Positions 15,512 through 62,500 of a DNA stretch of 64,000 bases are shown here, piece after piece. A program made the position numbers and the translations under genes. The stretch is from Marsupella aquatica. Taxonomy: Eukaryota; Plantae; Marchantiophyta. Under the pieces are notes generated by a model. That model was not told where the DNA came from. It was given only the letters and a program-made list of their open reading frames with translations, and did no database searches. The stretch spans positions 23,021,722 to 23,085,721 of the forward strand of contig OZ316896.1 in NCBI GenBank assembly GCA_973895155.1. Direction: 5' to 3'. Position 1 is the first letter of the stretch. Every line of letters begins with the position of its first letter.

Positions 15512-15575
<64 letters not shown>
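14485..15575. repeat. Inverted duplicate of the DVR upstream region, ending in a (GA)n tract (15515-15575)
   Basis: Reverse complement of 5182-6150 with scattered substitutions and a local ~23-bp duplication CAGCTCGGGGCTTCATCTTCACA. Confidence 0.9.
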
Positions 15576-17764: not shown

Positions 17765-18402
17765 AGCTCTGAACACGATTTCTGATCGAACGAGAACTAT
17801 TTCCGCAAACAAGAACTATTTCCGCAAACGAGAAGTGTGTTTTCATTTTCCGCTGAATCTCGCGAAATTGGTGGTTTTTTTAATCAAAAACAGGTTTTTG
17901 GGGAAATAATGTAATCTGTATCGGAGTTCGGATTGAATCAAGAAATTCAGGAATGGTCCAAACCACTGAAATTAATGGTCATAAACATTCAATTTATCAA
18001 GGAAAAATTAGATCCAAAAAATGTTCGCCAGAACCTCATATTCACTCTCTCCAAAGATATATGAAACGTCTTATCTAGAAATCCATATCCACTTTTCAAA
18101 CAAAGTCCGATACCTGTATCAGACTCCGGATTTCAACCATGAAAGTTCCGACCGAATCTCAATTTCCCCAGTTTTTGGTTATTTACTGTAACTATTTTAC
18201 ATCACAGTCGATAAGAAATTACCGCACAATTTGTCAAACTTACCTTGCAGTTACCTCCGCAATTGACCATAGTAACCACATACATGCATAGTCAACATGC
18301 CGTTGTCTCAACAACAATGCGCAGTCCGATAAAATTATCGCGGCAACTCCGGACGACAAAAATACTTGCCGACAATACTAAGATCTTTCGGTTCATCGGT
18401 TA

Positions 18403-18640
18403 AATTTCAAAATTGCAACTATCCATATTACGAAAACACTTTTTGCAATACCAACGTCAGATAAATTTATCGCTGCAATTTCAAAATTGCAAACTTTCCA
18501 TATGAAGGAAACACTTTTTGCAATACCAACATCAAATAAATTTATCGCTGCAATTTTAAAATTGCAACTTTCCATATGAAGGAAACACTTTTTGCAACAC
18601 CAACATCAGATAGATTTATCGCTTAAATTTCAAAACTACA
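18403..18640. repeat. Tandem repeat, 3 units of 74-75 bp, each with a GATAAATTTATC-like palindrome
   Basis: AATTT(C/T)AAAATTGCAA starts at 18403, 18477 and 18552, with a partial unit at 18626. Confidence 0.9.
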
Positions 18641-18727
18641 TAATTTCTCCACGATGCACGTGTAAGAATCAAATTGGAAATCCAAGAAATATACCCTTCT
18701 CTGCTATTTTGTGGTTTAGCGAGATGG

Positions 18728-18776
18728 CCAATCAAAAGTGGCCACGTGGGCCAACCCCTCAACAGACACTATAAAA
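18728..18776 (+). promoter_or_regulatory. Putative transposase promoter: CCAAT-N9-CCACG (ERSE-like, overlapping G-box) plus TATAAAA
   Basis: CCAAT 18728-18732, CCACG 18742-18746, TATAAAA 18770-18776, ~145 bp before the ATG at 18921; same layout in element B. Confidence 0.6.
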
Positions 18777-18920
18777 GGACCACCGTCGATAAGTTTTTGG
18801 CGTCATTATCCAGAGTAGAGTTTCAGGAGTTGTGTTCTTGGAGCAACATTTTGTTGGTTGAGCCATTCGTTTTCCCTGATTGAGGGAGGAATGCAAAGCC
18901 CCATAGTGTCTCGGATAGCC

Positions 18921-20210
18921 ATGTCTCAATCAGACACAGATTCACCTTCAAGTTCAGTTGAATCCTCTCCTAATCTACTCTCTCACAGCAGATAGTGCCC
19001 AAATTTTCTGACGTTGATTCAGATTCTGATGCAAGTTCTGGTCTTGAGCCCAGTTCTTACTATGTATCGCCTAGTAAACCTAAGAAGCGTCGTCTCTTGA
19101 GCGTTCCATCGCCAAGGAATGAGAAAATTACAATCCCAGGTTTAGGTCTGAGACGTCGCTTCAGGCCATCCATCCCGGGTTATGGAGAGGGTATCCGGCG
19201 ACCGATACGCGTATCGCACTCAGCATTCAAGTTGCCACATTCAACACACGTTCAACGACGGATCTTTTAGTCTCAGGGTGAGGATCAGGAGGCAGAAATA
19301 CAAAGACCGATATGGCGATCGGTCTTTGCATTGCCTGGACTGGACGTGCGAGCAAGCAAGGGAATTGGATTGCAAAGTCCAGACTCGGCCCTTTCCCAAA
19401 TGGTCCATGGGAATCGTGGTCAACAAGTGCTCAATTTTCCTGCAGCTCGCGGAGTCGTTGGGATTGCACGTATGAATAGTTCACCGTTCAGAGTTCCAGA
19501 TTCTCCAAGTTCTCCAGGGCGGACTGTGATTGGTTCCAGGCTCCAAGTGTCAAGGAGAGGTCTTAGTGGCGTTCGGGTTACTTATGTATAGAGAGCCACG
19601 GAGTCCAATTGTGTTTTCAGATGAGTCGAGTGGATCAGAGGACGAAGATCAGGAAGGAGATAGAGAATCCGATATCATAGCACAAGTTGTGTCTGAATGT
19701 TTAGAAGGAGCTGTAGAAGGGAATAGTTTTAGTCACCTTTTCAGTGCCCCTCTAAATGCGTTGAGGAGATCTGTGGAGGATGGTAGCTCAACAGAGAGTG
19801 ATGCATCTATTCGTGAGGTACCTGAAGGAGAGGAAAATGCTAATGTTCTCATCGGATTTCAGTCTATAAAGAAGTCAAATGAGCCTAGTAAAAAAGATAG
19901 AGATCGACCGAATTACTAGGAAAGACAATTATGTGATAAATGATAAATTGAATAGAAACAAAATGCAAGAAATTTATAAGTATCCATGTTGTGATAATTT
20001 TTGTCTGAGGAATTTGGGTTTGCAGGATGTGACAAAACAACGCACATATTACTATGGGCTATCCTACCAAGAGAAGAACGTACTTCTAAGAGGATGTGTG
20101 AAGGGTGGGCATGCCTGTGCAAGTGGTTACTCAGTTAGCGGTAGATCCTTTTGTCGGAGTGGTTTTAAGAAATTATTTTCCCTAGGAAATAATCGTCTCC
20201 AAAAAATTTG
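18921..20210 (+). pseudogene. Element A transposase, N-terminal part only
   Basis: Colinear with the element B transposase (KKRRLLSVP, PSIPGYGEGIRR, REPRSPIVF, KYPCCDNFCLR, FCRSGFKKLFSLGNNRLQ); has stops and frameshifts and ends before the DDE core. Confidence 0.85.
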
Positions 20211-20221
20211 AACACATAAAA

Positions 20222-22758
20222 AATTGCAGCAAGCACAAAATTCTTGAACACATACGGGATGTCAGCGGAGGGAACAATAACCTCCCCCGCCACATTATAT
20301 TGCACAGGCGGAACAACTTTATTTTTCTGCTTCGACCCAATCTTCAGCTGTAACAAAGGTCGCACAGAATTCCAATCAGAATGAACTCGCTTAACGAATA
20401 CGAAAGCCGATAAAAATCTCGGGATGATTTTCAAATGAAACGAGTTATGCAAAAATGTACTGATGGAATGGCAAGGCCGATAAAAATCTCGCAATGATTT
20501 TTGAATGGAACGAGGAATGCAAAAATCTACTAATGGAATGGCAAGGCCAATAAAAATCTCGGGGAGAGACGGGTGCTTACCGCTTCGCTCAACTTCTCTG
20601 CCCATGTTCTCAGGACGGAAACATCCATCTCATTTGGAAACATTTCTCTGCACGTTGCCCAGTCGGGCTGCCCAGATATCTGCAAGAATAATTCTTCACC
20701 TTAATTGGAAAGTTTTTTCAGCTTTTCCCCTTCCTTGTGCATTTGATCCAAGGTGATCACTTTCCCAATGACCCTATTCAAGAGCCGCTTAACATGCTCC
20801 TTAGTTGACTGTCCTTGAAGACCTCAAAAAGTATTTAAATTGAGGTCACCTGCAAGTTTATTCATTTTAATCTCTTTCAGCGTTAAAGGTTTAACCTTTC
20901 CCTTTGCATTTGTTGTTGCCACAATCTTGTTGGGTTGTCCCAAGATAGTCCCCTTCTCCCACATCTGGAAAACTTTCTCTTGAAGATCCCAAATTTCACC
21001 TGTTTGAAAAGCAATCTGGAACGTTGGGTCATGTTTGGCCATGCTGTCACGAACACCGGGAGTGTATTCCAGCATACATTCCTGACAACAAGCGTGCCAC
21101 AATATCTTTGTTGAAATGGACAGGAATGTATGTTGGAGTCATCCTACATCCATTTCAACAAAGATATTGTGGCACACACGAACTCTGTCGATATGAGTCA
21201 TGTTCTTCCTATACTCCTGGTCATAATTGTGCTGGAAGCCCAACTTTTGGACCTCCGACTTGGTAAGTCCTGCGTATACCCAAGCTTCCAGCTCACCATA
21301 AATCTGCTTCCCATACATTTTATACAACTCGGCCTTTGCTCGAGCACCATGATTTCCTCCAATAATTCTATACTTCCATACTTTGGACTGTAGAATGTCC
21401 CAATCCTCGATTGTGGGACAATCCTCCGGATCCACACACGGCACAAACGATGCGCTGAAGTTAGTGGGGTTTTTCCTTAGAAGAATCTTGATATTCTCCA
21501 CATGCAATTTGTCCACTGGTCTGATCAAAGTTAACTTCTCTCGAGCTTCATCAAAAATTAAATTGTCGACATGCAAGAGGACAGTTGTCCTTTGAAGCCT
21601 TCGCTGCATCAGCAGACTGAGCTCCGCTTTGATGGCGTCAATCTCATACATCGAAAGAGCAGTCACCTCCTCATCATCAATCTAGAAAACGCCATTTGAA
21701 ATTAGATTACGAAAGAAACAATGAGATTTTTATCGGAATCCTCTTTCGTCAATAGAAAATCAAAGTTTGGTAGCACTTACCGATCAAAGCTCGGTTTATA
21801 TATCTGAACGAGGCAAACGCTCGTCAATCACCAGAGGCTCCATATCGATTGGGGCTTCCACTCCTTCCGGGGCTGTGGATAAACTCTAGGTTGTTCTCTT
21901 TCTCTTAACACTGACTCTAGAACCAGATGGCCCCGATCCCTCAGATCCTCTACTCTCGCTTACATTTATGTAGGGCGCTTCCAAAATGCCTATACCTGCA
22001 CCGGCTGCACAACCTCGACGATTGCCGCTGCCCCTTCTCCCACCCTCGGAGGGACCAGCAACATCTTCCCTGGTGTTCCCTCTCCCTCTCCCTTTCCCCC
22101 TGCCACTTCCCTTCCCCGAACCCCTTTTGGGCTCATCCAAAGCCGTACCTCCAGCGCTTTTTGCCGATGAAGCTCCACTCCCGTTAGAACCAGGCCTCTC
22201 AATAACTATTTTCCGGATGGGTTTGAATTCTTCACTTGTGAGCCTCTTGTACTCTGCATTCACCCTTGGTAGCATGATGAGATCACAATCTTGGACAAAC
22301 TGGCACACCCAAGCTGGGCCCATAAGATTCATTACTTTTGCGGACCTAACTTCCGCGACAAGCACGTCTTCAGGGTAACTCTCAAGGGATTTCTCAAGAA
22401 AGTTCTCCATGGTGACAATGACAGAGGTGAATCCCTTGCCTCCACACATTGTCAAGAAACTCAGACCCTCTTTCAACACTTTTGCCTCTCCTTGGCTAAT
22501 CAAGTACTCACAGATCGCCACACCAACGACGGGGCTAAACGAGAGAGTAACCTTTGCGGATTTTTGCATCTAGACACAAAGGATAGGAGACTCACAGTCT
22601 GCCATATCCTTGGACTGTAACCTAGCGTCGCGGAAGTACCACAGTTTCTTGATGAACTTGACCTCTTCACAAATGTCTTCACTTGTCCAAATCGCGTTCG
22701 TGAGGCTTGTCATGAGACTTTCAGCCTCGGCAGATCCACTCTTCCCACTAGGACCCAT
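20222..22758 (-). pseudogene. Element A ParB-like gene, truncated before the methyltransferase domain
   Basis: AESLMTSLTNAIW..EDICEE, LIRPVDKLHVENIK, YRIIGGNHGARAK and DIPYVFKNFVLAAI match 25903-28560. Introns (21682-21780, donor at 20580) sit at positions equivalent to element B. Confidence 0.85.
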
Positions 22759-23100
22759 GATGACAAAGTCTACAAATCTGAATGCAAGGAGCAATAAATT
22801 TATCGCTCTGACAAACCAAAAAACCAAAAACTGGCATGCAAACATCGATACAATGAACTCAGAAAGTGCTCATTCACGTACAAGCATTAGGTCATTCCAC
22901 GAGCGATACCAACTCCGATAAAATTATTGCAAACAAATATGAGCATGATATAAATTGACGGCCGAGATTACATTATCATATGTGTGAACATCTGAAAATG
23001 CGACCAACACCGATAAAATTATTGCAAAAGTGGTCCAAACAAAAAGTGAACCTTCTTTAAATTGACGGCCGAGTGTACAATCACGTGATAATGTGCCTAA

Positions 23101-23823: not shown

Positions 23824-25902
23824 GGCCTGATCAGCGAATAGAAATCAGGAATACATTTTGGAGAACATACTCATTATAATTCTACAAGTTTCATTCAACT
23901 TTACAGTTCCTTGTATAACGGGCTGTGAAGCCAATGCACTTGTCAGCTAATTGTCCGTAGAGGCGCAAAAAACTACACTCTGGACCACACAACCCGAAGT
24001 CAGGCGATCAGGGTTCTGTTGTCTCAGGGAAGGCTTCCAACAATGTGGCCTCCGGCCTCTGTCCTGCCGACAAGCAACAGCTGCTTTCAAAAGAGAAGAA
24101 ACCTTCAGGATCCCCGTCTGCATCAATGGACCCTGAAGATGATGCAAGACAAGGAGCGGAGGTAGAGCCGTTGTCACCACTCTTGCATAGTCGCTCATTT
24201 TCACAACAGGCGCAAGAAATTCAAGCAGATGAGGAGGTTGCACACAACAATGGAGATGAGCATAGTCAAAAATAATTGTCGACATCGACTATCAACTTGC
24301 ATGTTGATTGCTTCACTCCGTCCACCCAGAGTTACATTCAATCTGATGAGGATGATGAAAGTGCTTATTTGCGCCGTAATGATAAAACAAAACAACAAGA
24401 GGTAAGTAAGTACCGTCATGCTGCACTCTTATATTATATATGGTAAATGTATTGCACAGTGACAATACTAAGTCAATCTGTTTACGGTATGTACTTATTC
24501 TGCAGGTAAAGAGGCAAAAAGTGACAGCAATACTGTAGACGAAAACAACCCTCTCTTGTACAAGGTACAAATCTGAACGTGCAATATTTCATTTTGTAGG
24601 TGGATATAATGTGATCAAGTTCCCCTCGTACTACTGTAAGTGATGCTTGAAAAGTTTCTTAGAGGTGCTTTTGAGACTTGATTGATGATTTGCGCTGTGG
24701 TAGGTAAAGTGAGAAAGACAAAGAACAAGATGGAGTCCTTGGAAGCATTGGTAACCTCAATTCACCCTTGACAAGAACACGGCGAGGCAAGGTTAACACA
24801 GTGACGGACCAAACGAGAAGTGTGACCACCCTTCTTGTTTTGCCCAATCGCAAAATCGCGGCTAAGTAAAGAAATCTCCGATACGAAACGCCCATGAGTG
24901 CGAATATCGTTTGTTTTGGACTCGGTTTTGGAGTCTTGAAAGTGAAGAGCGATACGCGGATCGCTCTTCGCATTGCGCAACCAAACAGTAAGAAAAAAAT
25001 CCACTTGAGACAGTAAACTGCATAAACTGCGCGGTTGACTACGAAACTTAATCCATGGTTAATTCTAACTCAACTTTGGTTAACGGAAACTAACCATGGT
25101 TAACGGCCAAAACTATATATATGAGTGCTCGGCCGTTCATTTCTCTTTCGGACAAATACAAACTGCTTGGTGCTCCCTGATCATTGTTTACCAAGCTGCA
25201 AAACTAACCATACAAACCTACATTTGAGTATCAATCGCACGTTTGATACAAGTATCGAAGGTTGCATTTGATCCTTATTTTGAACTTGAAATAGGAAAAT
25301 CGATACCGGTATCGCCTTCTCTATTCCGGTTAGACTTCTTGAGAGGTGTTTTTTTTTTGCTAGGCCATTCGCGAATGCCCTCGACGATACGCGTATCGCA
25401 AATTGGATTGCGGACCCAACTTTTGTGTTAGTGGGAAACTTCTGACACCGATAGCGCCAAAACAATTGAAGATTCACATAGGAAGCTTAGTCTTTTTGCG
25501 AGAAGGTACGGGTACCATACTAGGTTTTGATTTTATTTCCATTATAGCGGCCATTTGCTAACATTGATCGGTGGTTTCTTAAACAGCTTGTAGAGGCACG
25601 AGAAGCATCCGTCACTTTGAAGGTATGGTTACCACACAATCAATGTCGAGCAAACTTATTGGCAAGCTGTATTCATAGGTTGTTTAAGTTCTGGAACTTA
25701 TATTTATGAAACCAAGTTATGTAGCCATATGATTTCCAGCTTCAATATGTTTACATGTTTGTGGTAAATTCTAGGGTTTGGAGAGAGCGAGACGATCTAC
25801 CAGTATCACGGTTGTCATTCCGAAGGCCTACTCCAAAGAGACTGGTATCATAGATATCATTAAGTATATTAATCAATTGCACCTACCCTCTAATCCGTAA
25901 CA

Positions 25903-28900
25903 ATGGCGCCCAATCAGAGGAGTGGTTCTCAAGATGATGAGAGTTTGATGAGTAGCCTCTGCTCTTCAATCTGGCAGAATGAGGAGATTTGTGATGAGCA
26001 GAAATTCCTGAAGAAGAACTGGCATACAGTGCGCGACGCTATCGGAATGTTTCCTGATAAGGAAATTGACAAACCTTTTTTGTGGGTTCGAATCAAGAAG
26101 TCTGAGAAGGTTACCCTTTCATTCGGTCCGGTTGTAGCGTTTGCAGTTTGTGACTACATGAAGAGAAGAGGGAAAGATAAAGAAGCCAAGCAGGCTTTAA
26201 ATTTCTTGACTATGATGGGGACGAAGCCGTTCACTTCTATTATTCTTGATGTGGATTATTTTGACTTGAAGGCGATGGAAGCACACCCAGAGGATGCAGT
26301 TTTCAAGGAGTTGACAGATATTTTCTCTTGCGATTTAAAATTGACCCTTGAATGGTTTGAGAAATATGTTGCAGATTGTGACGAAGTACTGCTGCCACAA
26401 GTTTAGGCAGAATACAAGAAGATTTTTGGGCAGGATTTCAAAAAGACACTAAAATTGAAAGTCAAGAGAAAGACTGCAGAGGTAAGTGGGAGCTTGACAG
26501 CACAGGATCAGGTTGGCAAAGATCATGAGGGAGGATCAACCGGTGGAACAAAAGTAGGAAGTAAAAGTAGAACGGGTGGTCAGCGAAAAGAGACTCGCCA
26601 AGGACCGAGTGAGAAAGCGGTGAGTGGAGGTGCATGAGGGAGCCACCCCAGAAGGAAGCAATCCGGTTCTCGTTTGAGTAAAGATGATGACACCATTGGG
26701 GAAGTGGAAACCAAACATTTGAGTGACGTCCAAAAAGGGAGAGACAGCGCCGCCGCATCCGAGGGAGCTTTAGAAGTTGAAATGTTTCGACAAGACATTG
26801 TAAGTAATGTTTAATCGTTGAATAGTCCAAAGAAAGTGGTTTGATGATATTTTGGATTTCACTACCAATTGCAACATCCCCGTGAGCTTGTGTTACCTCT
26901 TGTGAACAAGCGTTATGTGTGACTTTTCAGACAATCAGGTCACTTGTGTTTTGCTATGAAATTTCTGATACCGGTATCGGTTGAAACATCCCCATTATTG
27001 TTTATAAACCTTTTGTTCCTCTCATGCTTGGAAACCTCATCCTAAGATGTTTTCTATGTAGGATGGAGACGATCTTACCGCACTTGAAAAGTACGAGACT
27101 GATGCCCTGCGCGCGGATCTTTTTGAGTTGATGACGAGTCGTAGAGTACTACAAACTACTGTTATTTTAAGTGTGAAAAATCTCATTCTTGATGAAGGAT
27201 CTGATGAATCTACCCTCATCCGCCCGGTGGATCGTTTACATTTGGAGAATATCAAATCTCTTTTGATCCAAAATCCAACAAATTTTAGCGCACCGTTTGT
27301 TCTTCATGTGGACCCAAGTGATTGCCCAACAGTCAAGGATTGGGACCAGTCTAAGTATATGAACTGGAAGTATAGAGTGATTGGCGGGAATCATGGTGCA
27401 CGGGCGAAGAATGAGTTGTTTGAACAATATGGGAAAAAGATCTTTGGAGAAGTTGAAGCATGGGTTTACGCTGGCCTCTCAAAACCTGAGTTTTGAAAAT
27501 TGGGTTGGAAGCATAACATAGACCAGGAGTACAGGAAGACAATGACAAATACTGATAAACTCAGGGCCTGTCATAATTTGTATTTGGAGTTCATGCAAAC
27601 GAAGAAAAAAGATCTTCGATTTGCTTGTTGTGAGGAGTGTGGCCTTGTGTACAATCCGAAGGATAGAGAGAGTGTTTCAAAATATGATCCAATGTTTCAA
27701 ATTGCATTTCGGCACGGAGAAATATGGGATCTTACAGATACAATTTTGACAATGTGGTCAAAGTTTGAGGTTCTTGGACAGGTGAAGGCAAAGTCTCCTG
27801 TAAAGCCTGCTCCTCCCAAGGGCAAAGGGAAATCAAGAGCAAGAGCAAAACCTGTATCCCGAAAGTTGCACAAACTAGCAGGGGATATCAACTTCTTTCC
27901 ATTCAGAGCACTTCAAGGTTTTGCAAATGAGGAGCAACAAAAGCGGTTATTGAGGAGGGTAATATCCAAAACTATAAGTCTTGATCAGATGCACCGTGAA
28001 GGAGAGCTCTTGAAAAAGCTCTTCAAGATAAGAAATTTGTTTCTCCAAATATCCGGTCAGCCAGATTGGGCTACATGTTGATTCTTATTTCTTGAAGAAA
28101 CTCAGGTTTCAGTTCTGACGACGTGGACGGAGAAGTTGAGCGACCAGGTAAAGGAGTTTTTCATTACTTATATTGTTTTATATAGCTTGAAAGAGAGGAG
28201 CAATACCTTATCTGCTTCTCCATTGAATTATTTGTTATTTTCTTTCATTGTGGGTTCTAGAGTGGAACCCAATACGGATGTTATTTTTTTTAGATTGAAA
28301 AAGGAGATACTGGTATCTACTTCTCCATTGTGGGGTCCTGATTGAATCCCACTACCGGTATCATTTTTTGGAGTTTGAAAGAGAGTAGTGATACTGGTAT
28401 CTGCTTCTCCATTGACTTTTGTGAAGCCTTGCAGCTCAAAGCATACTCCAAAAGGAAAGTGATACCTGTGGAGTAGACCAAGGTTCAGCCGGCAAAGCAG
28501 ATCGAACTCCCGGCTAAAGACATTCCACATTCTTTCCAGAATTTTGTACTTGGAGCGATTGAGAAATACAACCGGCAACAGAACATCGCATCTGTTGAGA
28601 TTGTTTCAACAGATTACACCTGGAAGAACGCTGACGGGGATTCTTTCCCTTATTCATTGCATCTTGGAGATGTTCATCGTTTGGAGGGGTTCTTGAAACC
28701 CCAAAATTATACTTTCGCTGTTGCTGATGTACCATATGGTTTTAATGCCCCCGGGTCTGAGTTTGATGAAGTTCCTTTTTCAGAACAGGATGTCGTCGAG
28801 ATGGTCACCTCTTTTTCCAAGGTGACAACAGCAAAGATTTGGAGATTCGTTGTGATGCATTCTCTTCAACAAGCTAACATGGTGATGCATGCACTTGAAA

Positions 28901-29543
28901 AAGTTTGCAACTGTGGAGTGGAAGCTGGAATATTGCAAAAGACAAATATTCATCAACATCCATCTGGCCCAAGATTAGCTTGGGCCTTTGAGAATTGGAC
29001 CATTGGGTACTACTCGGAGGAAGGAATTTGAAAAAAAGATATGTACAATTTTGAGCCAATTCAACGGATTTGAGGGTTAACATCATCAGTATCCCTTGTG
29101 TCACAACAAAAGCCCTAACACCACTGGGGTTTATTGTTAACCCTTATCAGAAGCCAGTTGGAGTGTCTGATTGGTTTGTGAATTATTTTAGCAACAAGGG
29201 AGATTGGGTGGCAGACTTGTGCTGCGGGACAGGGGCAACTTTGGTCGCGGCCCTTTTGAATTCTCGCAACGGATGCACGGTGGATAAGAGCTCTACTCAA
29301 ATTGAGTATGTCAAAAGTTGAATCATGACTTTGGACTCTGCTTGGAGTCTATTTGACAAAGCCTCAATTGTCGGAGATGGAGAAAGCTCTAAGGAGGTTC
29401 AACCTCCCATTGGCGGTGAGCTAGGTTTGATTGGAACGGATGCTTATGTAAACGAGTCGCCAAGGGAAGATGAAACTGAAAATGAAGAGCAGCTTCCGCA
29501 GACGCCCAACGATGAGGATCTTAATGAAATGTTGTTAGATTAG
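25903..29543 (+). pseudogene. Spliced gene: unknown N-terminal domain + ParB/Srx-like domain + beta-class N6-adenine/N4-cytosine DNA methyltransferase, disrupted
   Basis: Exons 25903-26799, 27062-28147, 28435-29543. ParB-like IRPVDRLHLENIK...YRVIGGNHGARA (27371-27400). MTase LHLGD...ADVPYG (DVPY 28726-28737), NPYQKP (29139-29156), WVADLCCGTG (29205-29234). Several TAG/TGA stops and a frameshift near 29055. Confidence 0.88.
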
Positions 29544-30640
29544 CTAAATAAAACATTATGTAATATGCCACTCTTAGTTGTCATTATTAGAGCTACATGG
29601 GATTTGTACTTAGTAAATAGTAAATCTGATACCAGTATCTGGAATATCATTTGTAGCTTTATATTAGTATGTACACTTTCTAGATGATAAATACTACTTG
29701 TGATACCAGTATTGGAAATCATATTCCAAACGGAGAAGGAATCAAATAGAACCCAAACTGCACTTTGGATGTCTATTCTAAACTGATGTGGGACTGTTTT
29801 CTGTCGAGTGAAATAGTGCGACACTTTCTATGCAACTCAAACTTCAGTAGTTCATCAAGAAAATTCAGGGTGATTACTAAATGTGAACTTGTGTAAATTG
29901 TCTAGACAACTTCTGTGCAATGGATCATTATATCCAAAGCACAGAGGTTGTCAAGACAGTCTACATGAGTTATGTTTACATTTTTACAAGAGGGCAGTTG
30001 GTTTGTTAGTCAACAACCATCAAACTGATATGTGCAAGGCACAAAACAATAAAAAATACAATGGAAACTATAAAATTGACGATGTTTGTACCTCAGATGA
30101 TTTTAAACGTCTGAGGTAACTTCATCATCGATGCTATTCAAAGTATCATTATGCGATGCAATACTATGAATATGACCCCATTTTGGGTTTGCTCTAAACA
30201 GCTCCGAAAGCATACCTTCTCGAGATTGCGAATGCAATATCCAGTCCATTAATATTCGTGAACTCGATCTTGCATTCAATCTCATGAAGGCAAGCTTTCG
30301 GAACAAAGTAACCACATTTAGTGGCTTGAAGGTGGCTTGTTTGTCATTTGGTAAGTTATTGTTTCTATACACGGTTTATATGGCAATCGGTACACAACAA
30401 AGCGAGGAGCGATACTGGTATCGTATCTGGTTTTTGTAGACAATCATCTTTTTACATGTGTGAGAGATACTAATTTTGCTCGACGGAAATTTATTTTCAC
30501 TATAAGGTATTGGTACACATTCGACACTAAAATACATTACCATTCAACAATATGTCCAAAAAAAAGCTGCTTCTTTATAATAAAATACTATTTACGATAC
30601 CAATATCAAAAACCACATTTGTTACAACTACAAAATTTCT

Positions 30641-33600
30641 TCAAGCTGTACAATCATCTAGCATGGCTGCCTGAATAATTCTTCGTGTTTTTGCTGGCAA
30701 GGTGTTGTCTGCATTCAAAGAAAAATTGTAGGCATAAATTGCAGTTTCAGAAAGGCAGATCTCTCCATGCAGAGCTTTGTTTGATGATGCTTCCTTCTCA
30801 GGATAATATTTTCCTTCAATTGTTGACAACTCCTCAGAATCCATCGTGTACCATGTGATACCAATATTGTCAGGCACTTCATCAACCTTGGTCAGTATTT
30901 TGGTAACCTTTGCCAGCCAAAAAGGCCTCCCATTTTGATCTGCATGGGCTGCAACACAAATCATTGAATATTTGTTATTTACTTCAAGATCTTTAAAATC
31001 TCCTACCTCGGAAATCCTCTTCCGAGCTCCAGAGTACATGGCCTTCTCTGGACCTGCAATTTTCTCAATGAGATCAGGTTCAATTGTAGGCGCCCTCCCA
31101 TCCATCACTAGGGTCTCTCGATGCTCGTTTGATTTTGGCCAGACCCAATCAAACATCCACTGTGCTGGCTTTAGGTGATTTTGGATGACATCTTCCTGTT
31201 TGTCAAAGAAATTTAGCCACCACAACTTATCCTTGTCGTCAAAATAATTGAATCCCTCCTCAATCGCTTTCCGATATTTCTCCAATGTTTCTCTTTCTAC
31301 TTCACCAGTAGCATCTGCTCCATCCCCTCCATTGGTGCTTTTCAACGCCATTTGAGGTACGTGCAACCCAGAATGTGGTTGTTGGGATGTAATTCACAAA
31401 CTCCACGGGATCACCCCAACTTGGGGTTGTTGAAATGTGTTTGGCATGAAACAAAACTTTTGGAATTCCATTTTCCCCAATCACACGTTTTATTCGGAAT
31501 TGCTTTTGAAAACTGATCTGATGAAGTGGTTGCAAAACATGCCCGGTTGCCCCAGTCCTGTTGGGGGTTGATCTTTATCGCTCACACGAAAATCCACTGT
31601 TTCTTCTACAAATATTATCTCAGCTTTGGGATTGTACGAACCCTGTATAATGTCAACAAGAGTATCCACTCAGAAAGCTTTGCGTTTGTTCAGTTTTGAG
31701 GAAAATTTGCTGAACATTTGGTCTATCTGATCATGTGTGTGGCCAACCAGCAGAAATCCAACCTTGATCTTCTGGAAAACCCCCAACTCTACAAGCATAT
31801 TTAAGTAAGCAAACAAGAATTTATTCTTGTTCTCCCGAGCAGTGTTATCCAACTGTAAATATAGCACCGGAGGTAGCACTCCCTCCCAAGTATTCAAAAT
31901 ATTCTGAATAACATGGATTGTAAGGTTAGAGTCATTGTGAATATTAGGGTAATTGAGATATACCTTGGCCTTCAACTGACCATTGAATATCAAACTGCCC
32001 ACCACATGAACAGAAATAAAATATTTCTCATCCATGTTTTTTGGACATCTGGTGAAGTGCGGTAACTCCGTCTTCTTTTGGTCCATCCCATCAATACATA
32101 TCCCCAAGTACTTTTCGGGGTGCTTGTAACATTTATTCCGGTGCTTTGCTAATTTCTCCCGCTTGACTCCTTGCGCTATACGATGCTTTTTCAACAACAT
32201 AGCATACTTACCTGAGCAATATCAAATTGGTAACAAAGTTATTATAAAAAAATTATTGCAACACTAGACTGCTGGTCTATTGGCATTTTGAGGTGTGTGG
32301 CAAAAACCATCTTCCAATGCCAAGACCTATAAATTTATAGGTTTTGGTATTCTAAGTTCAATAACACATCCAATTCCAATTCATATGGATAAAACAAAAA
32401 CTTACTTTTCTTTGATTCGAGCGTAGCTTTGTCACGGAGAGCTTTGAATTCTGTGCATGGACCGCAAGTCGAAAAATGACTTCTTTTTGGAATACGAACT
32501 CAAGGAAAATGTTGCTTCCATGTCCGACAGAACCAAGAATATGTAACCCCTTGTTCTTGGCGCAACAGAGTTTCAGTTCGGAAGGCATCAAAGACTTCAG
32601 CTTTCGTCCAATTGTCAGGCAAATGAAAAATTTCCTTATTGGGAAGTCTTTCAACGTTACTCCTAAAAAAATCATTTAACCACTCTATTAAAGTAAGATG
32701 AGTGGAGGATTTTTTTCTACAAAATACATTGTTCTCGATACAAGAGAACATATTTTGGGTTATCCTTTGAAGGCGATTATTTCCAATTGAAAATAATTTC
32801 TTAAAACCTTCTCGACAAAAAGAGTTTCCAGACACACTATACTCGCATGACCCACTCTGGTTATTCCTAACGCATCCTCTTAGAAGTATATTCTTCTCTC
32901 CACGGGTCAGGCCAAAATAATAGGTACGCTCTTTCGTTACTTCAAGTAAACCGAAAGTCCTCAAACACATATTGTCACAACATGGATACTTGAACACTTC
33001 TTTCATTTTTCTCCTCTTTAAATTCTAACTTGTAACAGTGTCTTTCTTGGCTATCCTATCCCTATGTTTCTTACTAGGGACTTTCAGTTTCACCCTATCC
33101 TGAAATTCCCTTGTTGAATCATCACTTCCACGGTCTTCACAAACCTCTTCGATGACGTCCTCATTGTCAGTGTTTGGCTCACTGAAAAGGTGGCTATAGC
33201 TACTCTGTGGCTCATTGCCTCCATCATCAGCTTCTAAACATTCTGACACAACTTGTGCAATTACTTCGGACTCTCTATCGTGTACAGAGACATCTTCCAG
33301 ACTTTCTTCATCACTGGAATCATCAGAAGATTCAAAACATACAATTGGAGTTCTGGGTTCTCTAAACTTGACTCGAACTATTGCATTACGAGAAATACCT
33401 ACCCTAGGTAACCCATACCTTCTAACTAGAAATCTTGAAATAGTACCCGTCTGAACTGGCGTTGTCTGTGGACTATTCTCTTTAGGACCATTATCCTCAT
33501 TTGGACAAGATTCAAAAAGTCTCTGCATACACTTTCCTCAAAGCATTCAAGATTGAGCGGAGATAGGACTTTGGAGTCCCATGAAAGCCACCCTATCAGT

Positions 33601-34078
33601 GGATGTCCGCCCCAACACTGGCAATGCTCAAGGCAATACGTGTATCACCTTTGGTATTCGCGACTCTGTTGGCTCTCGAAAAATCCTCCTTTGCACCTGA
33701 GAGCTAGTGCTCATTGAATTTCTCGGATCCAATCCTGACGCCGATACCCGTATCGTTCTTCGGATTCCTTCTCCATATCCAGGAATGGATGGTTTATAAC
33801 AGCGTCGAGCTCCCAAACCTAGTATTGAAAGTTTCTCTATTCCTGGTCGAGGAACACTCAGTAGACGTCGTTTATTTGGCTTACTAAGTAGGGGAGACAT
33901 AATAAGACCCTATCTCTGGCGTAGAACCACCGTCTGAGTCTGAACCGGAATCCAAGAGTTCGGGTATGACACGGTGGGACGGGGAAAGCTTCTTCAAGAT
34001 ATGAGAAGGTAGAAATCTTGTTCGAACATTAGGAGATGACTCCATAGAACTCTCTTGGGAATCAGATGTATGAGACAT
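30641..34078 (-). pseudogene. Sola-like (DUF7869-type) DDE transposase with a C-terminal SH3/Tudor-like segment, disrupted
   Basis: CCDNMC, RLPNKEIFHLP, FSTCGPC, intron 32405-32212, then CIDGMDQKK (DGMDQ 32078-32092), LQLDNTARENKN (~31820-31858) and VGHTHDQIDQMFS (~31706-31745). In-frame stops and frameshifts present. Confidence 0.88.
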
Positions 34079-34244
34079 GATGAATCAAAAACTCTATGGC
34101 AGTTCACATTCGTCTCTTGAACCTAGTGTTGCAAAGCTTGTCTCATGAACTTAGGGAAGAGAGATAGGGAGCAGAGAGATCTAGACAGCGAAAATGACTC
34201 CCGACCTCTAATGGAATGAAGTCCGATAACTTGAGCGTCCGCAC

Positions 34245-34291
34245 TTTTATAGTCACGGCGGCAGAAGATTTACGTGGCAATTTTTGATTGG
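34245..34291 (-). promoter_or_regulatory. Putative transposase promoter of element B: CCAAT-N9-CCACG plus TATAAAA
   Basis: On the minus strand: CCAAT 34291-34287, 9-nt spacer, CCACG 34277-34273, TATAAAA 34251-34245; ATG at 34078. Confidence 0.6.
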
Positions 34292-35939
34292 CTCCCGCTA
34301 AACGACAAAATAGTCCAGAGTCGGGCCTCCATAATTGGTCCCTGTATCTGAGTTTGGAATTGATGTTTGAATTTGAGCAACATTTAAATTAAGGTGGTCA
34401 AAAAGGTGAATGGCAATACCAGTATCGCTGTTTGCATTGGAGTCATTTAAATGTGATCCTGGAGGACGACAAATACCGGTATTGTTATGTCGTTTCTATC
34501 ATAAAATGGGATACCGGTATGGGAATAGTTTAGTTTTCTTGATCTGTTTTCCTTGTAACCAAAAGTTCTATTTTCAAAATCTAACGAAAATGGAAATATT
34601 TATGGGTTCTATTGTCGCAATGAAAATGTTTGAAGTTAGTGAGGATATTGAAATTCACAATTTGGGATGAAGCCAACATTCCTCACGAAGTTGGGAACGA
34701 TACGAATTAGTTGGTTTTGCAAAAATCATTGATTTTGCAAGAAATGTGTCGCGCACATTGTGAAAATTGGCGAAAATCGATCGAAATTGAAAACACCCTT
34801 CTCCATTAGGCGTCACACTTCTCGTTTGGTCCGTCACAGTGTTGGTTCCAAATCCAGGCAAAGAAAATGTACCTTCATTTAGGGGAATTTCAACAAAAGT
34901 ACAGGAGGATGCACGACAACGGTTGTTGACTGGCAAGAACATGGTATGATTACACATTCCGTCGGTTCAAGATGTTCTTCGTTTAAAGTAATAGATTTGT
35001 TTAAAGTACGATTCATTTGTGTATAATGAGGTGGAGGTAGAACATAATGGTCTTAAGGTTTCATGATCTGCCCATTTTATATATATGTTCAGGAAAACAA
35101 GGTAGAAGTTCCGTGCGCGCAAGGAACTAGGAGCAGATTAAGTGGCAAATCACACGTTGCTGAAGACTCAAACATAGTAAGTACATATATAGTTCAGCCG
35201 CACTACGCAAACATATATAAAAATCCTGTTCAACATCATATGCTATGTAAGTTGTTTTCAGATGTGAGGGGCCGTTGTTGTGCTTTTAAACATCCACCCT
35301 ATCTTTCTGAAACTTTTGCAGGACTTTGACACACTCACTAAAGACGCCAAATTAGTGGTCTGCATGAGAGCCATGGGATTGATGAAGACATGCGAAGTGG
35401 ATGCCAAGCTGCGCATGTTTGTTGCAGATACAAACAAGCGATCAAAGACTTCCCCCAAACCATTCACCAAACATGCTCAAAAGACTGCGTCTGAGTTATT
35501 AGACATGGTGGCCAGGTGGGCTCTAGAGCAGAACAGAGTAATCATTAGAGATCTACCGGTTCTCAATGCGAAAGGCAAGCAAAGGATCTTCCCCAAGAAT
35601 GCTGTATAGAATGTTGCTGAAGACTGAGGTAGTCAGATACCTAGAACATTGTCTGGTGAAGGGGCTTGGGGTTTATATATGTCTAGTTTTGTGACTCGTG
35701 CACGCGCTCCTAAATAATCAAACATTGTCACATCTGTATGTCTGTCAATTTGAATGAAGTAACCCCAAGTATCCATGAATTTTTCCACGGATCCACCTCC
35801 CATGTACGCCTCCAATAACACTACATCCCCGGAATACCTTCAAAATACCGGCACACAAGATCCACGGATGGCACACAGTGGACCCCTGGATGCCTCCAAT
35901 CTGCGCACATCCGACAAATAACATCAGAATACCTCAGAA

Positions 35940-37025: not shown

Positions 37026-37238
37026 GTGGTTGTACGTAGCTAAATTCCCCGGAGACACGTAGGGGAGAGGTCAAAATACTCAGAGTGTGATATACCCTGG
37101 TACCTGTGGGCTTCAGTAGGTAATTTGGGTGCATTACCCCAAGATGGCCGGAATACCTACTTCTTTGTTATCAAACAATGAATTACCGGGGGAATGTTGG
37201 GAAATACCCTGCACCCAAACCATGCATATCCTCCTTGT

Positions 37239-37495: not shown

Positions 37496-38792
37496 AACAA
37501 AGTGATGAACCAAACGAGAAGTATGACCACCAAATGAGAAGTGTGTTTTTGATTTCCCAAAAAATGGCAAAAAATGACAAAAATTAATATCAAAAATGCT
37601 ATTTTCAGGATGAATCCAGAATTTCATCCAACATTGGATTTCAAGTTGAGATATTGTCGACCCAAAAACAAACAATTGTCACAATCCAGAATTTCGAGAC
37701 ACTTCACTTGTAAAAAGGGCAAAAACCCAAAACCTGGAAAACAGTGCTTTTCACGTCATCCCTTGACTTTGTTTTTGACCATAGTTGGATAAGGCGTATC
37801 CAAAGCTGATAAGGTGTATCCCCACGGCCTCTTATTAAACCAAATATATTTCATGGAGCAGATGGGGTTGATTCAAGGGTAGAATCCCAAAAACTCATCA
37901 TTCATCCAAAAATGTGCTACAAAATAAAGTTCATATTCTTGAAAAGTATCTTTACAAAGAGCCCAAGATCATGAGCAGACCAAAACATGAACGGAAGCAC
38001 AGGAATGAAGCTAACTCTAAGCTTCACGATACATATCCACGAGCCTTGCTTGCTGATCTTTCTCAAGATTGTGCCAGTCTTCTTGAAATCAACTTAGTTC
38101 AGACCTTGAAAATAAACCCAAAGAAATCGATTGGTGAAAGATTTGGGGTTTCCATCCTAAAAAACCAACATGAACATTCTGAAGGGGTTCTCCTTCGGGA
38201 ATGTTTGTCAGCATTTCATTTACTTCCTCAAACTGGCTTCTTTCTAGTCTAAACATACCCCAGACTCGTGTACAAATTACGAGCTGGTTCCATTTCTTTG
38301 AGAATGATGCATGGACCAAGCCACACCATTGTTTTTAATTGCTTCAATCTTTCCTCAGCTGAGATCTTGGAGGAATCAAATTCATCCTCTATGCAACAAA
38401 CTTTCAAAATGGGCCACATGAAAGTTTCAACGATCTCATCAGAAAGTCCATCCAAAAGCAATCTGGATTCCCTTCCCAAATTTCATCGCAGTTGGTTAAA
38501 AGTTACCATTGAAAAGAATCATATGGGAATATTCTTAAAAGGTAAATCGATCTCAAAACTTTTACTACGTTTAATTTTTGTTTTTTTAGAATTCCGCGGT
38601 GGGATCCGAAATGGGATACGCTGTATCACTGGTTCGTATTCAAGTCAATTTTCCCATTTTTTAAAATCTAAAAACTAGTTTCTTGAGGGAATACCAATTC
38701 CGCATCCAGGACCTTTTTGCCTTAGACATTTTTTCCGTCGCGGGAAAAATGAGAAGTGTGGTCACACTTCACGTTTGGTCTGTCACTGTGTT
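37496..38792. mobile_element. Element C: 1,297-bp non-autonomous member of the same TIR family
   Basis: Left end AACAAAGTGATGAACCAAACGAGAAGTATGACCAC; right end GTGGTCACACTTCACGTTTGGTCTGTCACTGTGTT; CACC on both flanks (37492-37495, 38793-38796). Confidence 0.92.
38089..38479 (-). pseudogene. F-box-like gene remnant inside element C
   Basis: LLDGLSDEIVETFMWPIL followed, after a frameshift, by SFSKKWNQLVICTRVW, matching the two halves of an F-box-like pattern. Confidence 0.45.
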
Positions 38793-59533: not shown

Positions 59534-62500
59534 AACACAGTGACGGACCAAACGAGAAGTGTGACCACCCTTCTTGTTTTGCCCAATCGCAAAATCGCGG
59601 CTAAGTAAAGAAATCTCCGATACGAAACGCCCATGAGTGCGAATATCGTTTGTTTTGGACTCGGTTTTGGAGTCTTGAAAGTGAAGAGCGATACGCGGAT
59701 CGCTCTTCGCATTGCGCAACCAAACAGTAAGAAAAAAATCCACTTGAGATAGTAAACTGCATAAACTGCGCGGTTGACTACGAAACTTAATCCATGGTTA
59801 ATTCTAACTCAACTTTGGTTAACGGAAACTAACCATGGTTAACGGCCAAAACTATATATATGAGTGCTCGGCCGTTCATTTCTCTTTCGGACAAATACAA
59901 ACTGCTTGGTGCTCCCTGATCATTGTTTACCAAGCTGCAAAACTAACCATACAAACCTACATTTGAGTATCAATCGCACGTTTGATACAAGTATCGAAGG
60001 TTGCATTTGATCCTTATTTTGAACTTGAAATAGGAAAATCGATACCGGTATCGCCTTCTCTATTCCGGTTAGACTTCTTGAGAGGTGTTTTTCTTTTGCT
60101 AGGCCATTCGCGAATGCCCTCGACGATACGCGTATCGCAAATTGGATTGCGGACCCAACTTTTGTGTTAGTGGGAAACTTCTGACACCGATAGCGCCAAA
60201 ACAATTGAAGATTCACATAGGAAGCTTAGTCTTTTTGCGAGAAGGTACGGGTACCATACTAGGTTTTGATTTTATTTCCATTATAGCGGCCATTTGCTAA
60301 CATTGATCGGTGGTTTCTTAAACAGCTTGTAGAGGCACGAGAAGCATCCGTCACTTTGAAGGTATGGTTACCACACAATCAATGTCGAGCAAACTTATTG
60401 GCAAGCTGTATTCATAGGTTGTTTAAGTTCTGGAACTTATATTTATGAAACCAAGTTATGTAGCCATATGATTTCCAGCTTCAATATGTTTACATGTTTG
60501 TGGTAAATTCTAGGGTTTGGAGAGAGCGAGACGATCTACCAGTATCACGGTTGTCATTCCGAAGGCCTACTCCAAAGAGACTGGTATCATAGATATCATT
60601 AAGTATATTAATCAATTGCACCTACCCTCTAATCCGTAACAATGGCGCCCAATCAGAGGAGTGGTTCTCAAGATGATGAGAGTTTGATGAGTAGCCTCTG
60701 CTCTTCAATCTGGCAGAATGAGGAGATTTGTGATGAGCAGAAATTCCTGAAGAAGAACTGGCATACAGTGCGCGACGCTATCGGAATGTTTCCTGATAAG
60801 GAAATTGACAAACCTTTTTTGTGGGTTCGAATCAAGAAGTCTGAGAAGGTTACCCTTTCATTCGGTCCGGTTGTAGCGTTTGCAGTTTGTGACTACATGA
60901 AGAGAAGAGGGAAAGATAAAGAAGCCAAGCAGGCTTTAAATTTCTTGACTATGATGGGGACGAAGCCGTTCACTTCTATTATTCTTGATGTGGATTATTT
61001 TGACTTGAAGGCGATGGAAGCACACCCAGAGGATGCAGTTTTCAAGGAGTTGACAGATATTTTCTCTTGCGATTTAAAATTGACCCTTGAATGGTTTGAG
61101 AAATATGTTGCAGATTGTGACGAAGTACTGCTGCCACAAGTTTAGGCAGAATACAAGAAGATTTTTGGGCAGGATTTCAAAAAGACACTAAAATTGAAAG
61201 TCAAGAGAAAGACTGCAGAGGTAAGTGGGAGCTTGACAGCACAGGATCAGGTTGGCAAAGATCATGAGGGAGGATCAACCGGTGGAACAAAAGTAGGAAG
61301 TAAAAGTAGAACGGGTGGTCAGCGAAAAGAGACTCGCCAAGGACCGAGTGAGAAAGCGGTGAGTGGAGGTGCATGAGGGAGCCACCCCAGAAGGAAGCAA
61401 TCCGGTTCTCGTTTGAGTAAAGATGATGACACCATTGGGGAAGTGGAAACCAAACATTTGAGTGACGTCCAAAAAGGGAGAGACAGCGCCGCCGCATCCG
61501 AGGGAGCTTTAGAAGTTGAAATGTTTCGACAAGACATTGTAAGTAATGTTTAATCGTTGAATAGTCCAAAGAAAGTGGTTTGATGATATTTTGGATTTCA
61601 CTACCAATTGCAACATCCCCGTGAGCTTGTGTTACCTCTTGTGAACAAGCGTTATGTGTGACTTTTCAGACAATCAGGTCACTTGTGTTTTGCTATGAAA
61701 TTTCTGATACCGGTATCGGTTGAAACATCCCCATTATTGTTTATAAACCTTTTGTTCCTCTCATGCTTGGAAACCTCATCCTAAGATGTTTTCTATGTAG
61801 GATGGAGACGATCTTACCGCACTTGAAAAGTACGAGACTGATGCCCTGCGCGCGGATCTTTTTGAGTTGATGACGAGTCGTAGAGTACTACAAACTACTG
61901 TTATTTTAAGTGTGAAAAATCTCATTCTTGATGAAGGATCTGATGAATCTACCCTCATCCGCCCGGTGGATCGTTTACATTTGGAGAATATCAAATCTCT
62001 TTTGATCCAAAATCCAACAAATTTTAGCGCACCGTTTGTTCTTCATGTGGACCCAAGTGATTGCCCAACAGTCAAGGATTGGGACCAGTCTAAGTATATG
62101 AACTGGAAGTATAGAGTGATTGGCGGGAATCATGGTGCACGGGCGAAGAATGAGTTGTTTGAACAATATGGGAAAAAGATCTTTGGAGAAGTTGAAGCAT
62201 GGGTTTACGCTGGCCTCTCAAAACCTGAGTTTCGAAAATTGGGTTGGAAGCATAACATAGACCAGGAGTACAGGAAGACAATGACAAATACTGATAAACT
62301 CAGGGCCTGTCATAATTTGTATTTGGAGTTCATGCAAACGAAGAAAAAAGATCTTCGATTTGCTTGTTGTGAGGAGTGTGGCCTTGTGTACAATCCGAAG
62401 GATAGAGAGAGTGTTTCAAAATATGATCCAATGTTTCAAATTGCATTTCGGCACGGAGAAATATGGGATCTTACAGATACAATTTTGACAATGTGGTCAA

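What the first reader, a model, noticed from the sequence alone, without database searches (positions are those of the whole stretch)
24795..34843. Cut-and-paste transposon carrying a ParB-fused prokaryote-type DNA amino-methyltransferase
Seen: a 10-kb element bounded by 32-bp TIRs and a GGTT TSD holds two long convergent genes. One is a DDE transposase (DGMDQ / QLDN..RENKN / GHTHDQID). The other is a 3-exon gene with a ParB-like domain (RPVD..HLE.IK, YRVIGGNH) and an MTase domain ordered LHLGD, DVPY, NPYQKP, DLCCGTG. Established: catalytic motif IV (DPPY-like) preceding SAM-binding motif I (FxGxG-like) defines beta-class N6A/N4C MTases (Pfam N6_N4_Mtase), and ParB-MTase fusions are typical of phages and prokaryotic mobile DNA. 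Eukaryotic N4C MTases of bacterial origin are known in bdelloid rotifers and Marchantia. Inference: this family may write its own 6mA/4mC mark and could carry such enzymes into plant genomes. Diverged element A has the same gene pair and intron positions, so the gene is a stable part of the family rather than a one-off capture. I know of no description of this architecture in land plants, but I cannot search the literature here.
Basis: partly seen in the sequence, partly recalled or inferred. Interest (0 to 1): 0.95.

Follow-up and report, generated by a model that had tools for sequence, protein, structure and literature searches.

The report
Plant transposon with self-targeting DNA methyltransferase
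A decayed 10-kb plant DNA transposon carries a conserved gene predicted to join a bacterial-type palindrome-binding protein (ParB/Noc) to a bacterial-type DNA amino-methyltransferase, and each family member scatters its own short palindrome through its non-coding DNA, so these elements likely write their own DNA mark, probably methyl-adenine.

Summary
The element has 32-bp TIRs and a GGTT target duplication, a DUF7869 transposase and a convergent three-exon gene. This copy is dead: seven stops and a frameshift in that gene. Relatives in metagenome contigs are about 50-60% identical and keep both phase-0 introns; one is an open 1001-codon frame, two lie beside the same convergent transposase, and selection is purifying. 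Models of that intact relative match beta-class amino-methyltransferases (CcrM, Z 19.4) and full ParB/Noc/KorB proteins, DNA-binding domain included. Distant ParB-MTase fusions occur in Chara braunii and Ginkgo; no close prokaryotic relative was found. New here: each of five elements carries its own 14-bp palindrome (frame CGA-N8-TCG), 8-21 copies, 69 of 73 outside coding DNA, and a MITE with the same TIRs has none. Best reading: a parS-like self-targeting methylation system, likely 6mA and anti-silencing, working like Arabidopsis VANC. Binding, activity, target base and effect are untested. It is not Marchantia DN4MT1. Ten literature searches found no description.

The parts
24791..24794 (.). 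Left target-site duplication GGTT
24795..24826 (+). Left 32-bp terminal inverted repeat
   Evidence: many different flanks at 24795 in runs X1 and X2
25903..26799 (+). Passenger gene exon 1: conserved N-terminal region of about 190 aa of unknown fold, then a low-complexity linker; stops at 26404 and 26635
   Evidence: no family or solved relative found
27062..28147 (+). Exon 2: ParB/Noc/KorB-like N-terminal domain (GGNH at 27383-27394) followed by a helical DNA-binding domain; stops at 27494 and 28079
   Evidence: fold from the model of relative L002; HTH_ParB E 8e-4, below its cut-off
28435..29543 (+). Exon 3: beta-class amino-methyltransferase (DVPY 28726-28737, NPYQKP, DLCCGTG 29214-29234) with an acidic tail; stops at 28474, 29029 and 29319, 5-bp insertion near 29057
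   Evidence: fold from the model of relative L002
24951..34521 (.). 16 dispersed copies of the palindrome GATAC-NN-GTATC (up to 1 mismatch): 5 upstream of the passenger gene, 3 in its introns, 4 between the genes, 2 in the transposase 5' part, 2 upstream of the transposase, 0 in the three passenger exons
30641..34078 (-). Transposase gene (DUF7869), broken by stops and frameshifts
34812..34843 (-). Right 32-bp terminal inverted repeat
34844..34847 (.). Right target-site duplication GGTT
17772..23030 (.). Element A: diverged, inverted relative (exon 2 58% identical) with one TIR-like end at 17772, a central deletion of the MTase and transposase cores, and its own palindrome CGATAA-NN-TTATCG, partly in 74-bp and 70-bp tandem repeats
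37496..38792 (.). Non-autonomous MITE with the same TIR and a CACC duplication; carries none of the palindromes
59534..64000 (+). Second copy of the element's left half inside a 22.6-kb duplication; three C/T differences, and no stop at the position of 27494

Best explanation
This is a decayed copy of a plant cut-and-paste transposon family whose second gene encodes a predicted ParB/Noc-like DNA-binding protein fused to a predicted beta-class amino-methyltransferase, which likely binds the element's own scattered 14-bp palindromes and likely methylates adenine at or near them, probably to keep the element expressed despite host 5mC silencing. Shown: the element, the gene structure, its conservation with the transposase, purifying selection and the element-specific palindromes in non-coding DNA. 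Predicted from models of relative L002: both folds. Inferred: that the ParB-type domain binds the palindromes as a dimer, as ParB binds parS and Noc binds NBS; that the mark is 6mA, from the D-type motif; and that the effect is anti-silencing, by analogy with VANC.
For: Folds: the MTase model's best matches are all beta-class amino-MTases (CcrM E 5e-12; Z 19.4, 218 residues, rmsd 3.7). The exon-2 model's 9 matches at E <= 0.001 are all Noc or ParB chains; VIA gives PadC Z 11.0 (99 residues, rmsd 2.7) and pNOB8 ParB Z 9.1 (210 residues, rmsd 5.4), and the DNA-binding domains of KorB, ParB and SopB align to model residues 136-338 at Z 3.8-5.3. Selection: MTase core pN 0.12-0.21 against pS 0.79-0.85; D[IVL]PY in 26 of the 27 rows that cover it. 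Linkage: a convergent transposase C-terminus follows the gene in 2 of 4 metagenome loci, and the other 2 contigs end too soon. Palindromes: 15, 11, 18, 21 and 8 copies in B, A, L001, L002 and L003 against 0.1-0.6 in shuffles, with 4 of 73 in coding DNA that makes up 62-77% of each element; all 28 window matches lie in A, B or their duplicates, against 1.13 expected; the MITE has none. ParB and Noc sites are palindromes of similar size (PMC7053999). VANC motifs lie in introns, intergenic and terminal regions and spread by tandem repeats (PMC5735166), as in element A.
Against: No binding, activity or methylome data. The motif patterns were drawn from these same sequences, so enrichment is partly by construction, and the B and L001/L003 patterns cross-match. 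The ParB arginine patch GERRxR reads GGNHGAR in 22 of the 23 rows that cover it, so a CTP-driven sliding clamp is doubtful. The DNA-binding-domain match is weak on its own (E 0.16; Z 4-5). PMC8885841 warns that this MTase domain has repeatedly evolved 6mA or 4mC specificity. Transposases can themselves activate their own copies sequence-specifically (10.64898/2026.08.24.746577, abstract). The window copy shows C-to-T decay typical of 5mC, so any protection failed here. TIRs were not reached in any metagenome locus.
Confidence: 0.5

Rival explanations
1. The protein binds and methylates the element's own palindromes, but the mark is 4mC, or it serves self-restraint or timing of transposition (as Dam does for bacterial insertion sequences, recalled) rather than anti-silencing.
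For: The same anatomy as the best explanation. Each half-site begins with CG in intact copies. N4C enzymes (rotifer N4CMT Z 18.6, PvuII Z 16.3) score close to the N6A enzymes. In rotifers 4mC marks transposons (PMC8885841, passages).
Against: The catalytic motif is D-type in the near family and in most distant rows, while most N4C enzymes carry SPPY.
Confidence: 0.22
2. The palindromes are binding sites for the transposase, and the ParB-MTase acts elsewhere (genome-wide, on RNA, or on the transposition intermediate).
For: Transposases and TnpA activate cognate copies sequence-specifically (10.64898/2026.08.24.746577, abstract). Several eukaryotic amino-MTases moved to RNA substrates (PMC4738411).
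Against: The MITE moved with the same TIRs yet has no palindrome. The copies sit in the passenger gene's introns and between the genes, not only near the ends. A different repeat, AAACGAGAAGTGTG, marks the termini.
Confidence: 0.14
3. The MTase domain is a pseudo-enzyme and the protein is a sequence-specific binder or scaffold, like the probably inactive Dam-like domains of DIRS1 retrotransposons.
For: DIRS1 MTase domains are reported as likely inactive (PMC4738411). Motif IV departs from DPPY at its second position. The Ginkgo protein reads DIPH.
Against: Asp, Pro and Tyr of motif IV and the glycines of motif I are kept across saturated synonymous divergence. Eight distant rows have DPPY at the same profile position.
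Confidence: 0.1
4. The gene is a passively captured host gene with no role for the transposon.
For: The transposon context of the Chara and Ginkgo homologs was not tested; some could be ordinary host genes.
Against: The same convergent gene pair occurs in B, A, L002 and L003 at about 50-60% protein identity, under purifying selection.
Confidence: 0.04

Closest known systems
VANDAL/VANC anti-silencing system of Arabidopsis (PMC5735166, passages read)
   Same: A DNA transposon with an extra gene and family-specific short motifs in introns, intergenic and terminal non-coding DNA, partly in tandem repeats; motifs differ between families.
   Different: VANDAL is Mutator-like (recalled) and its 8-9-bp motifs are not palindromes; VANC causes loss of 5mC. 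Here the binder is ParB-like, the motifs are 14-bp palindromes and the protein has its own methyltransferase domain. No homology to VANC was tested or is claimed.
Bacterial ParB-parS, Noc-NBS and KorB (PMC7053999, passages read)
   Same: Predicted N-terminal ParB domain followed by a helical DNA-binding domain; palindromic sites of similar length.
   Different: The arginine patch GERRxR is replaced by GGNHGAR; about 35 lysine-rich residues are inserted; the protein is fused to an MTase, has spliceosomal introns and no ParA partner in the element.
Beta-class amino-MTases (CcrM, M.BceJIV, M.MboIIA, M.RsrI, M.PvuII; PF01555)
   Same: Fold and motif order, IV before I.
   Different: 13-21% identity in structural alignments; D[IV]PY motif; ParB fusion; no restriction enzyme.
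Marchantia DN4MT1 and bdelloid N4CMT (10.1101/2021.02.12.428880, PMC8885841, PMC10406627; passages read)
   Same: Eukaryotic beta-class amino-MTases of bacterial type.
   Different: They are host genes with (T)SPPY that make 4mC; DN4MT1 has no extra domains and N4CMT has a chromodomain. This protein is transposon-borne, D-type and ParB-fused. Its model matches N4CMT no better than bacterial enzymes (17% identity). No sequence tree with either enzyme was built.
Retrotransposon-borne methyltransferases: SymbioLINE-Dnmt, SymbioDIRS-Dnmt3, charophyte Dnmt3 elements, DIRS Dam-like domains (PMC5890265, PMC4738411; passages read)
   Same: A transposon carrying a DNA methyltransferase, with self-methylation proposed.
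   Different: Those are retroelements with C5-cytosine enzymes or likely inactive Dam-like domains; none is described with a ParB domain or cognate palindromes in the passages read.
Chlorophyte-type Dam with ParB-type HTH in chlorophytes and chytrids (PMC4738411; passages and section 8 read)
   Same: A eukaryotic adenine MTase fused to a ParB-type HTH.
   Different: That clade is placed in the M.EcoKI/M.TaqI-like Group 2, not the permuted beta class, and is not described as transposon cargo or in land plants. Its sequences were not compared here.

Membership tests
TIR (cut-and-paste) DNA transposon | Terminal inverted repeats and target-site duplication | tested here: met
   32-bp TIR, GGTT duplication; MITE with CACC; empty-site joints
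TIR (cut-and-paste) DNA transposon | DDE/D transposase of RNase H fold | tested here: inconclusive
   DUF7869 165.7 bits and three acidic motifs by eye; no solved relative by sequence; not folded
Sola superfamily | Transposase homology to Sola1-3 and Sola-type termini | not testable with these tools
   The resemblance (4-bp duplication, QLDN..ENKN and GHT..D motifs) is recalled; the defining paper is not held and no Repbase profiles were available
Beta-class N6A/N4C DNA methyltransferase (PF01555) | Catalytic motif IV N-terminal to SAM-binding motif I, in a Rossmann MTase fold | tested here: met
   DVPY precedes DLCCGTG; PF01555 above cut-off; Z 19.4 to CcrM
Beta-class N6A/N4C DNA methyltransferase (PF01555) | SAM-dependent methylation of adenine N6 or cytosine N4 in DNA | not testable with these tools
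   Needs an assay
DN4MT1 / N4CMT-type 4mC enzymes | SPPY catalytic motif | tested here: not met
   D[IVL]PY in 26 of 27 rows; TSPPY and SPPY
ParB/Spo0J/Noc proteins | ParB/Srx N-terminal fold | tested here: met
   Z 11.0 to PadC, 8.2 to sulfiredoxin; Foldseek E 1e-4 to Noc
ParB/Spo0J/Noc proteins | Central helix-turn-helix DNA-binding domain | tested here: inconclusive
   Whole-chain matches to Noc, ParB and KorB span it; alone Z 3.8-5.3 and HTH_ParB 20 bits against a cut-off of 22.6
ParB/Spo0J/Noc proteins | Arginine patch GERRxR that binds CTP | tested here: not met
   GGNHGAR in 22 of 23 rows; the patch as given in PMC7053999
VANC-like anti-silencing system | Family-specific motifs concentrated in the element's non-coding DNA | tested here: met
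   69 of 73 copies outside coding DNA in five elements
VANC-like anti-silencing system | The encoded protein binds the motif and relieves silencing in trans | not testable with these tools
   Needs EMSA, ChIP and a transgene

The most novel reading that the evidence does not exclude
An old streptophyte transposon lineage carries a complete bacterial-style address-and-write system: a ParB-derived reader that co-evolves with element-specific parS-like palindromes, and a fused 6mA writer that marks the element as self and counters host 5mC silencing. It would be a transposon-encoded, sequence-directed source of 6mA in land-plant genomes and a natural panel of retargetable methyltransferases.
Probability: 0.4. 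Interest if true: 0.95.

Novelty: new variant of a known kind. Interest (0 to 1): 0.87.

Why it matters
Land plants are reported to have few adenine methyltransferases (PMC4738411), and the source of plant DNA 6mA is debated (own knowledge). This family gives a concrete enzyme, an intact natural gene (L002) and predicted target sites, so the question can be tested directly. It would also be a second, independent solution to sequence-specific anti-silencing after VANC, built from bacterial parts, and a set of natural reader-site pairs for epigenome engineering.

Tried and rejected
No whole genome is held, so copies could not be counted. Searching for full-length homologs of exon 2 among longer proteins found none (weak test). 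Pattern scans found no relative in viral contigs or prokaryote genomes; these reach only close relatives. Phage tblastn gave matches of 23-29% identity in the 20 of 162 records listed, and plasmids gave none for exon 2. Bacterial contamination is rejected: spliceosomal introns and plant neighbours. No RNA holder was listed. Exon 1 matched no Pfam family or solved structure and was not folded. No Rfam match in 14000-41500. No second end of element A was found. CpG depletion did not separate the element from host genes. The L001 MTase rows were out of frame and were discarded and redone; the right-hand counts were mis-offset and redone. In the 47-row tree the five prokaryote-type rows group apart (SH-aLRT 99), but branches are long, no donor can be named, and the motif labels printed there are first regex matches and unreliable; rows covering under 190 profile positions and six close relatives were left out. 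The recognition-helix sequences of five elements are too few to test co-evolution with the palindromes. Three look-ups of earlier findings returned nothing. No complex prediction was run.
Full report
Observation. TIRs of 32 bp with one mismatch lie at 24795-24826 and 34812-34843, with GGTT on both sides, and a MITE at 37496-38792 has the same TIR and a CACC duplication, which fixes the ends and the 4-bp duplication. Contigs of public runs skip the element (24794->34851 in X3; 24769->34844 in X1 and X3), and 14 contigs in X1 and 10 in X2 run off at 24795 into differing flanks, so these ends have inserted at many places. The host is a land plant, from polyphenol oxidase domains and an ALMT/FUSC-like gene in the window; that it is a bryophyte is my recalled impression and was not tested. 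No whole genome is held.

Genes. The minus strand holds a broken transposase gene (34078-30641) that matches DUF7869 at 165.7 bits. Its DDE/D nature rests on motif inspection, and a Sola affinity is recalled only. The plus strand holds a three-exon gene (25903-26799, 27062-28147, 28435-29543); both introns are GT-AG and phase 0 in B, A, L001 and L002. Database protein P0053 reads straight across the predicted exon 2-3 junction, as a spliced transcript or an intronless copy would. The window copy has seven stops and a 5-bp insertion near 29057. Five of the stops and the insertion are absent from some copies in runs X1-X5 (27494; 28079, 28474, 29029, 29319 and the insertion). The two exon-1 stops were not among the 40 of 316 rows shown, and no contig spans the element, so an intact copy in those runs is likely but not shown. 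At 29029 and 29319 both C-to-T and G-to-A variants of the same CG occur, the pattern of 5mC decay.

Element A. It has the same gene pair and intron positions, with exon 2 58% identical, but a central deletion near 20210-20222 removed its MTase core and its transposase core. It therefore cannot show that the MTase is a stable part of the family.

Relatives. A metagenome scan gave 4 loci from 360 pattern matches. L001-L003 carry exons 2 and 3 at 51-62% identity with an unbroken MTase exon, and L002 is an open 1001-codon frame. A convergent transposase C-terminus follows in L003 (179 aa, 50%) and L002 (31 aa at the contig end); L001 and L004 end too soon, and no locus reaches a TIR. Protein searches gave 28 near homologs of the MTase core and 22 of exon 2. 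Synonymous sites are saturated while replacements are few: pN 0.12-0.21 against pS 0.79-0.85 in the MTase core, and pN 0.13-0.34 against pS 0.75-0.89 in exon 2. D[IVL]PY is kept in 26 of 27 rows that cover it. A profile search found 1157 representatives at E <= 0.001; 22 of the 147 new ones listed also match the exon-2 profile. Of 10 looked up, 3 bear organism names: Chara braunii CBR_g41648 and CBR_g66820, and Ginkgo biloba Gb_37443. Their genomic context was not tested. Pattern scans of viral contigs and prokaryote genomes found no relative, and the listed phage MTases are 23-29% identical. The fusion thus looks old in streptophytes; its donor is unknown.

Folds, predicted from the intact relative L002. 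The MTase model (pLDDT 78) matches beta-class amino-MTases first: CcrM E 5e-12 and Z 19.4 over 218 residues, with M.BceJIV, M.MboIIA and rotifer N4CMT within about 1 Z unit. The fold does not decide between 6mA and 4mC. The D-type motif leans to 6mA, but PMC8885841 notes that specificity has switched repeatedly in this domain (passages). The exon-2 model (pLDDT 76) matches Noc and ParB in all 9 hits at E <= 0.001. VIA gives PadC Z 11.0, KorB Z 9.5 (rmsd 10.6) and pNOB8 ParB Z 9.1, and aligns the DNA-binding domains of KorB, ParB and SopB to residues 136-338 at Z 3.8-5.3. The CTP-binding patch GERRxR (PMC7053999, passages) reads GGNHGAR in 22 of 23 rows, so clamp sliding is doubtful.

Each element carries its own 14-bp inverted repeat in the frame CGA-N8-TCG: CGATAC-NN-GTATCG in B, CGATAA-NN-TTATCG in A, CGAGAC-NN-GTCTCG in L001 and L003, and CGATCC-NN-ACATCG in L002. 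Counts at up to two mismatches are 15, 11, 18, 8 and 21 against 0.1-0.6 in shuffles, and only 4 of 73 fall in coding DNA, which makes up 62-77% of each element. In the window, all 28 matches to GATACNNGTATC at one mismatch lie in A, B or their duplicates, against 1.13 expected. The bare frame CGA-N8-TCG occurs at 0.6-4.4 per kb in the elements and 0.09 per kb in host DNA. In A several copies sit in 74-bp and 70-bp tandem repeats. The MITE has none, so the motif is not needed to be moved in trans. Caveats: the patterns came from these same sequences, and the B and L001/L003 patterns cross-match; the avoidance of coding DNA is not built into the patterns.

Mechanism. A ParB-type reader, palindromes of parS-like size that differ between subfamilies, and a fused writer suggest that the protein docks on its own element and methylates it, most likely on adenine. 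The placement of the motifs mirrors VANC targets, which lie in introns, intergenic and terminal regions and spread by tandem repeats (PMC5735166, passages), and 6mA is tied to active transcription in algae (PMC4738411, passages). I give 0.5 to self-targeted 6mA as anti-silencing, 0.22 to self-targeting with 4mC or a restraining role, 0.14 to the motifs being transposase sites, 0.10 to a pseudo-enzyme and 0.04 to passive capture. Binding, activity, base and effect are all inferred.

Literature. Ten full-text searches found no description of this family; the library lacks most subscription papers and Repbase reports. I read passages of 10.1101/2021.02.12.428880, PMC8885841, PMC10406627, PMC12344493, PMC5890265, PMC5735166, PMC7053999, PMC5751038, PMC9033089, PMC10294476, PMC4455052 and 10.1101/2021.09.26.461848; passages and section 8 of PMC4738411; and the abstract and outline of 10.64898/2026.08.24.746577, where a term search found no mention of ParB or methyltransferase. 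I read no supplements. The Supporting Information of PMC4738411 and the 2025 Cell version of the Marchantia paper were not seen and could list related proteins. DN4MT1 has TSPPY and no extra domains, so this is a different enzyme. The ParB-HTH-fused Dam of chlorophytes and chytrids belongs to another MTase group. Methyltransferases in retrotransposons are known (PMC5890265).

Verdict. The feature is real, and the family appears undescribed: a new variant of transposon-borne methyltransferase that likely works like a VANC system built from bacterial parts. Interest 0.87. If self-targeted 6mA writing is shown, it would be a new kind of system (probability 0.4, interest 0.95).

Noticed in passing
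window 6707-29261 and 41430-64000: A 22.6-kb stretch is duplicated at 99.8% identity, including a polyphenol oxidase gene, an ALMT/FUSC-like gene, element A and the left half of element B; a recent tandem duplication or an assembly of two haplotypes.
   Followed up: partly
window 5181-6146 and 14489-15547: Inverted repeats of about 1 kb at 81% identity enclose the polyphenol oxidase and ALMT-like genes; possibly two copies of one repeat in opposite orientation, or a long-TIR element with captured genes.
   Followed up: no
window 23100-24794 and 34848-37030: Element B sits inside another repeat: an intron-containing gene remnant whose frame continues across the empty site, a 247-aa ORF with no family at 23101-23844 and a 147-bp tandem array at 35954-37023. 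Flank depth is high in several runs.
   Followed up: partly
window 15395-15465, 37324-37394, 4907-4997: A short dispersed repeat containing GGGATTGAACCCGGG, followed by an AG microsatellite at 15515; possibly a tRNA-derived SINE. No Rfam match in 14000-41500.
   Followed up: partly
window 61801-62817 (exon 2 of the second copy): The protein atlas placed residues 20-245 nearest to unnamed eukaryotic clusters (sponges, molluscs) and fungal DUF3723 at score 0.96; DUF3723 is recalled as cargo of fungal Starship elements, which hints at a wider set of ParB-like proteins in eukaryotic mobile DNA.
   Followed up: no
proteins P0145, P0146, P0155, P0228: Very divergent ParB-MTase fusions of 690-980 aa from unnamed contigs, two with DPPY, apparently encoded as single long frames; host unknown, possibly algae or protists.
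   Followed up: partly
window 31997-32353: Run X6 (organism C) has very high contig depth over this part of the transposase but little over the MTase gene: a related high-copy element in another species.
   Followed up: no
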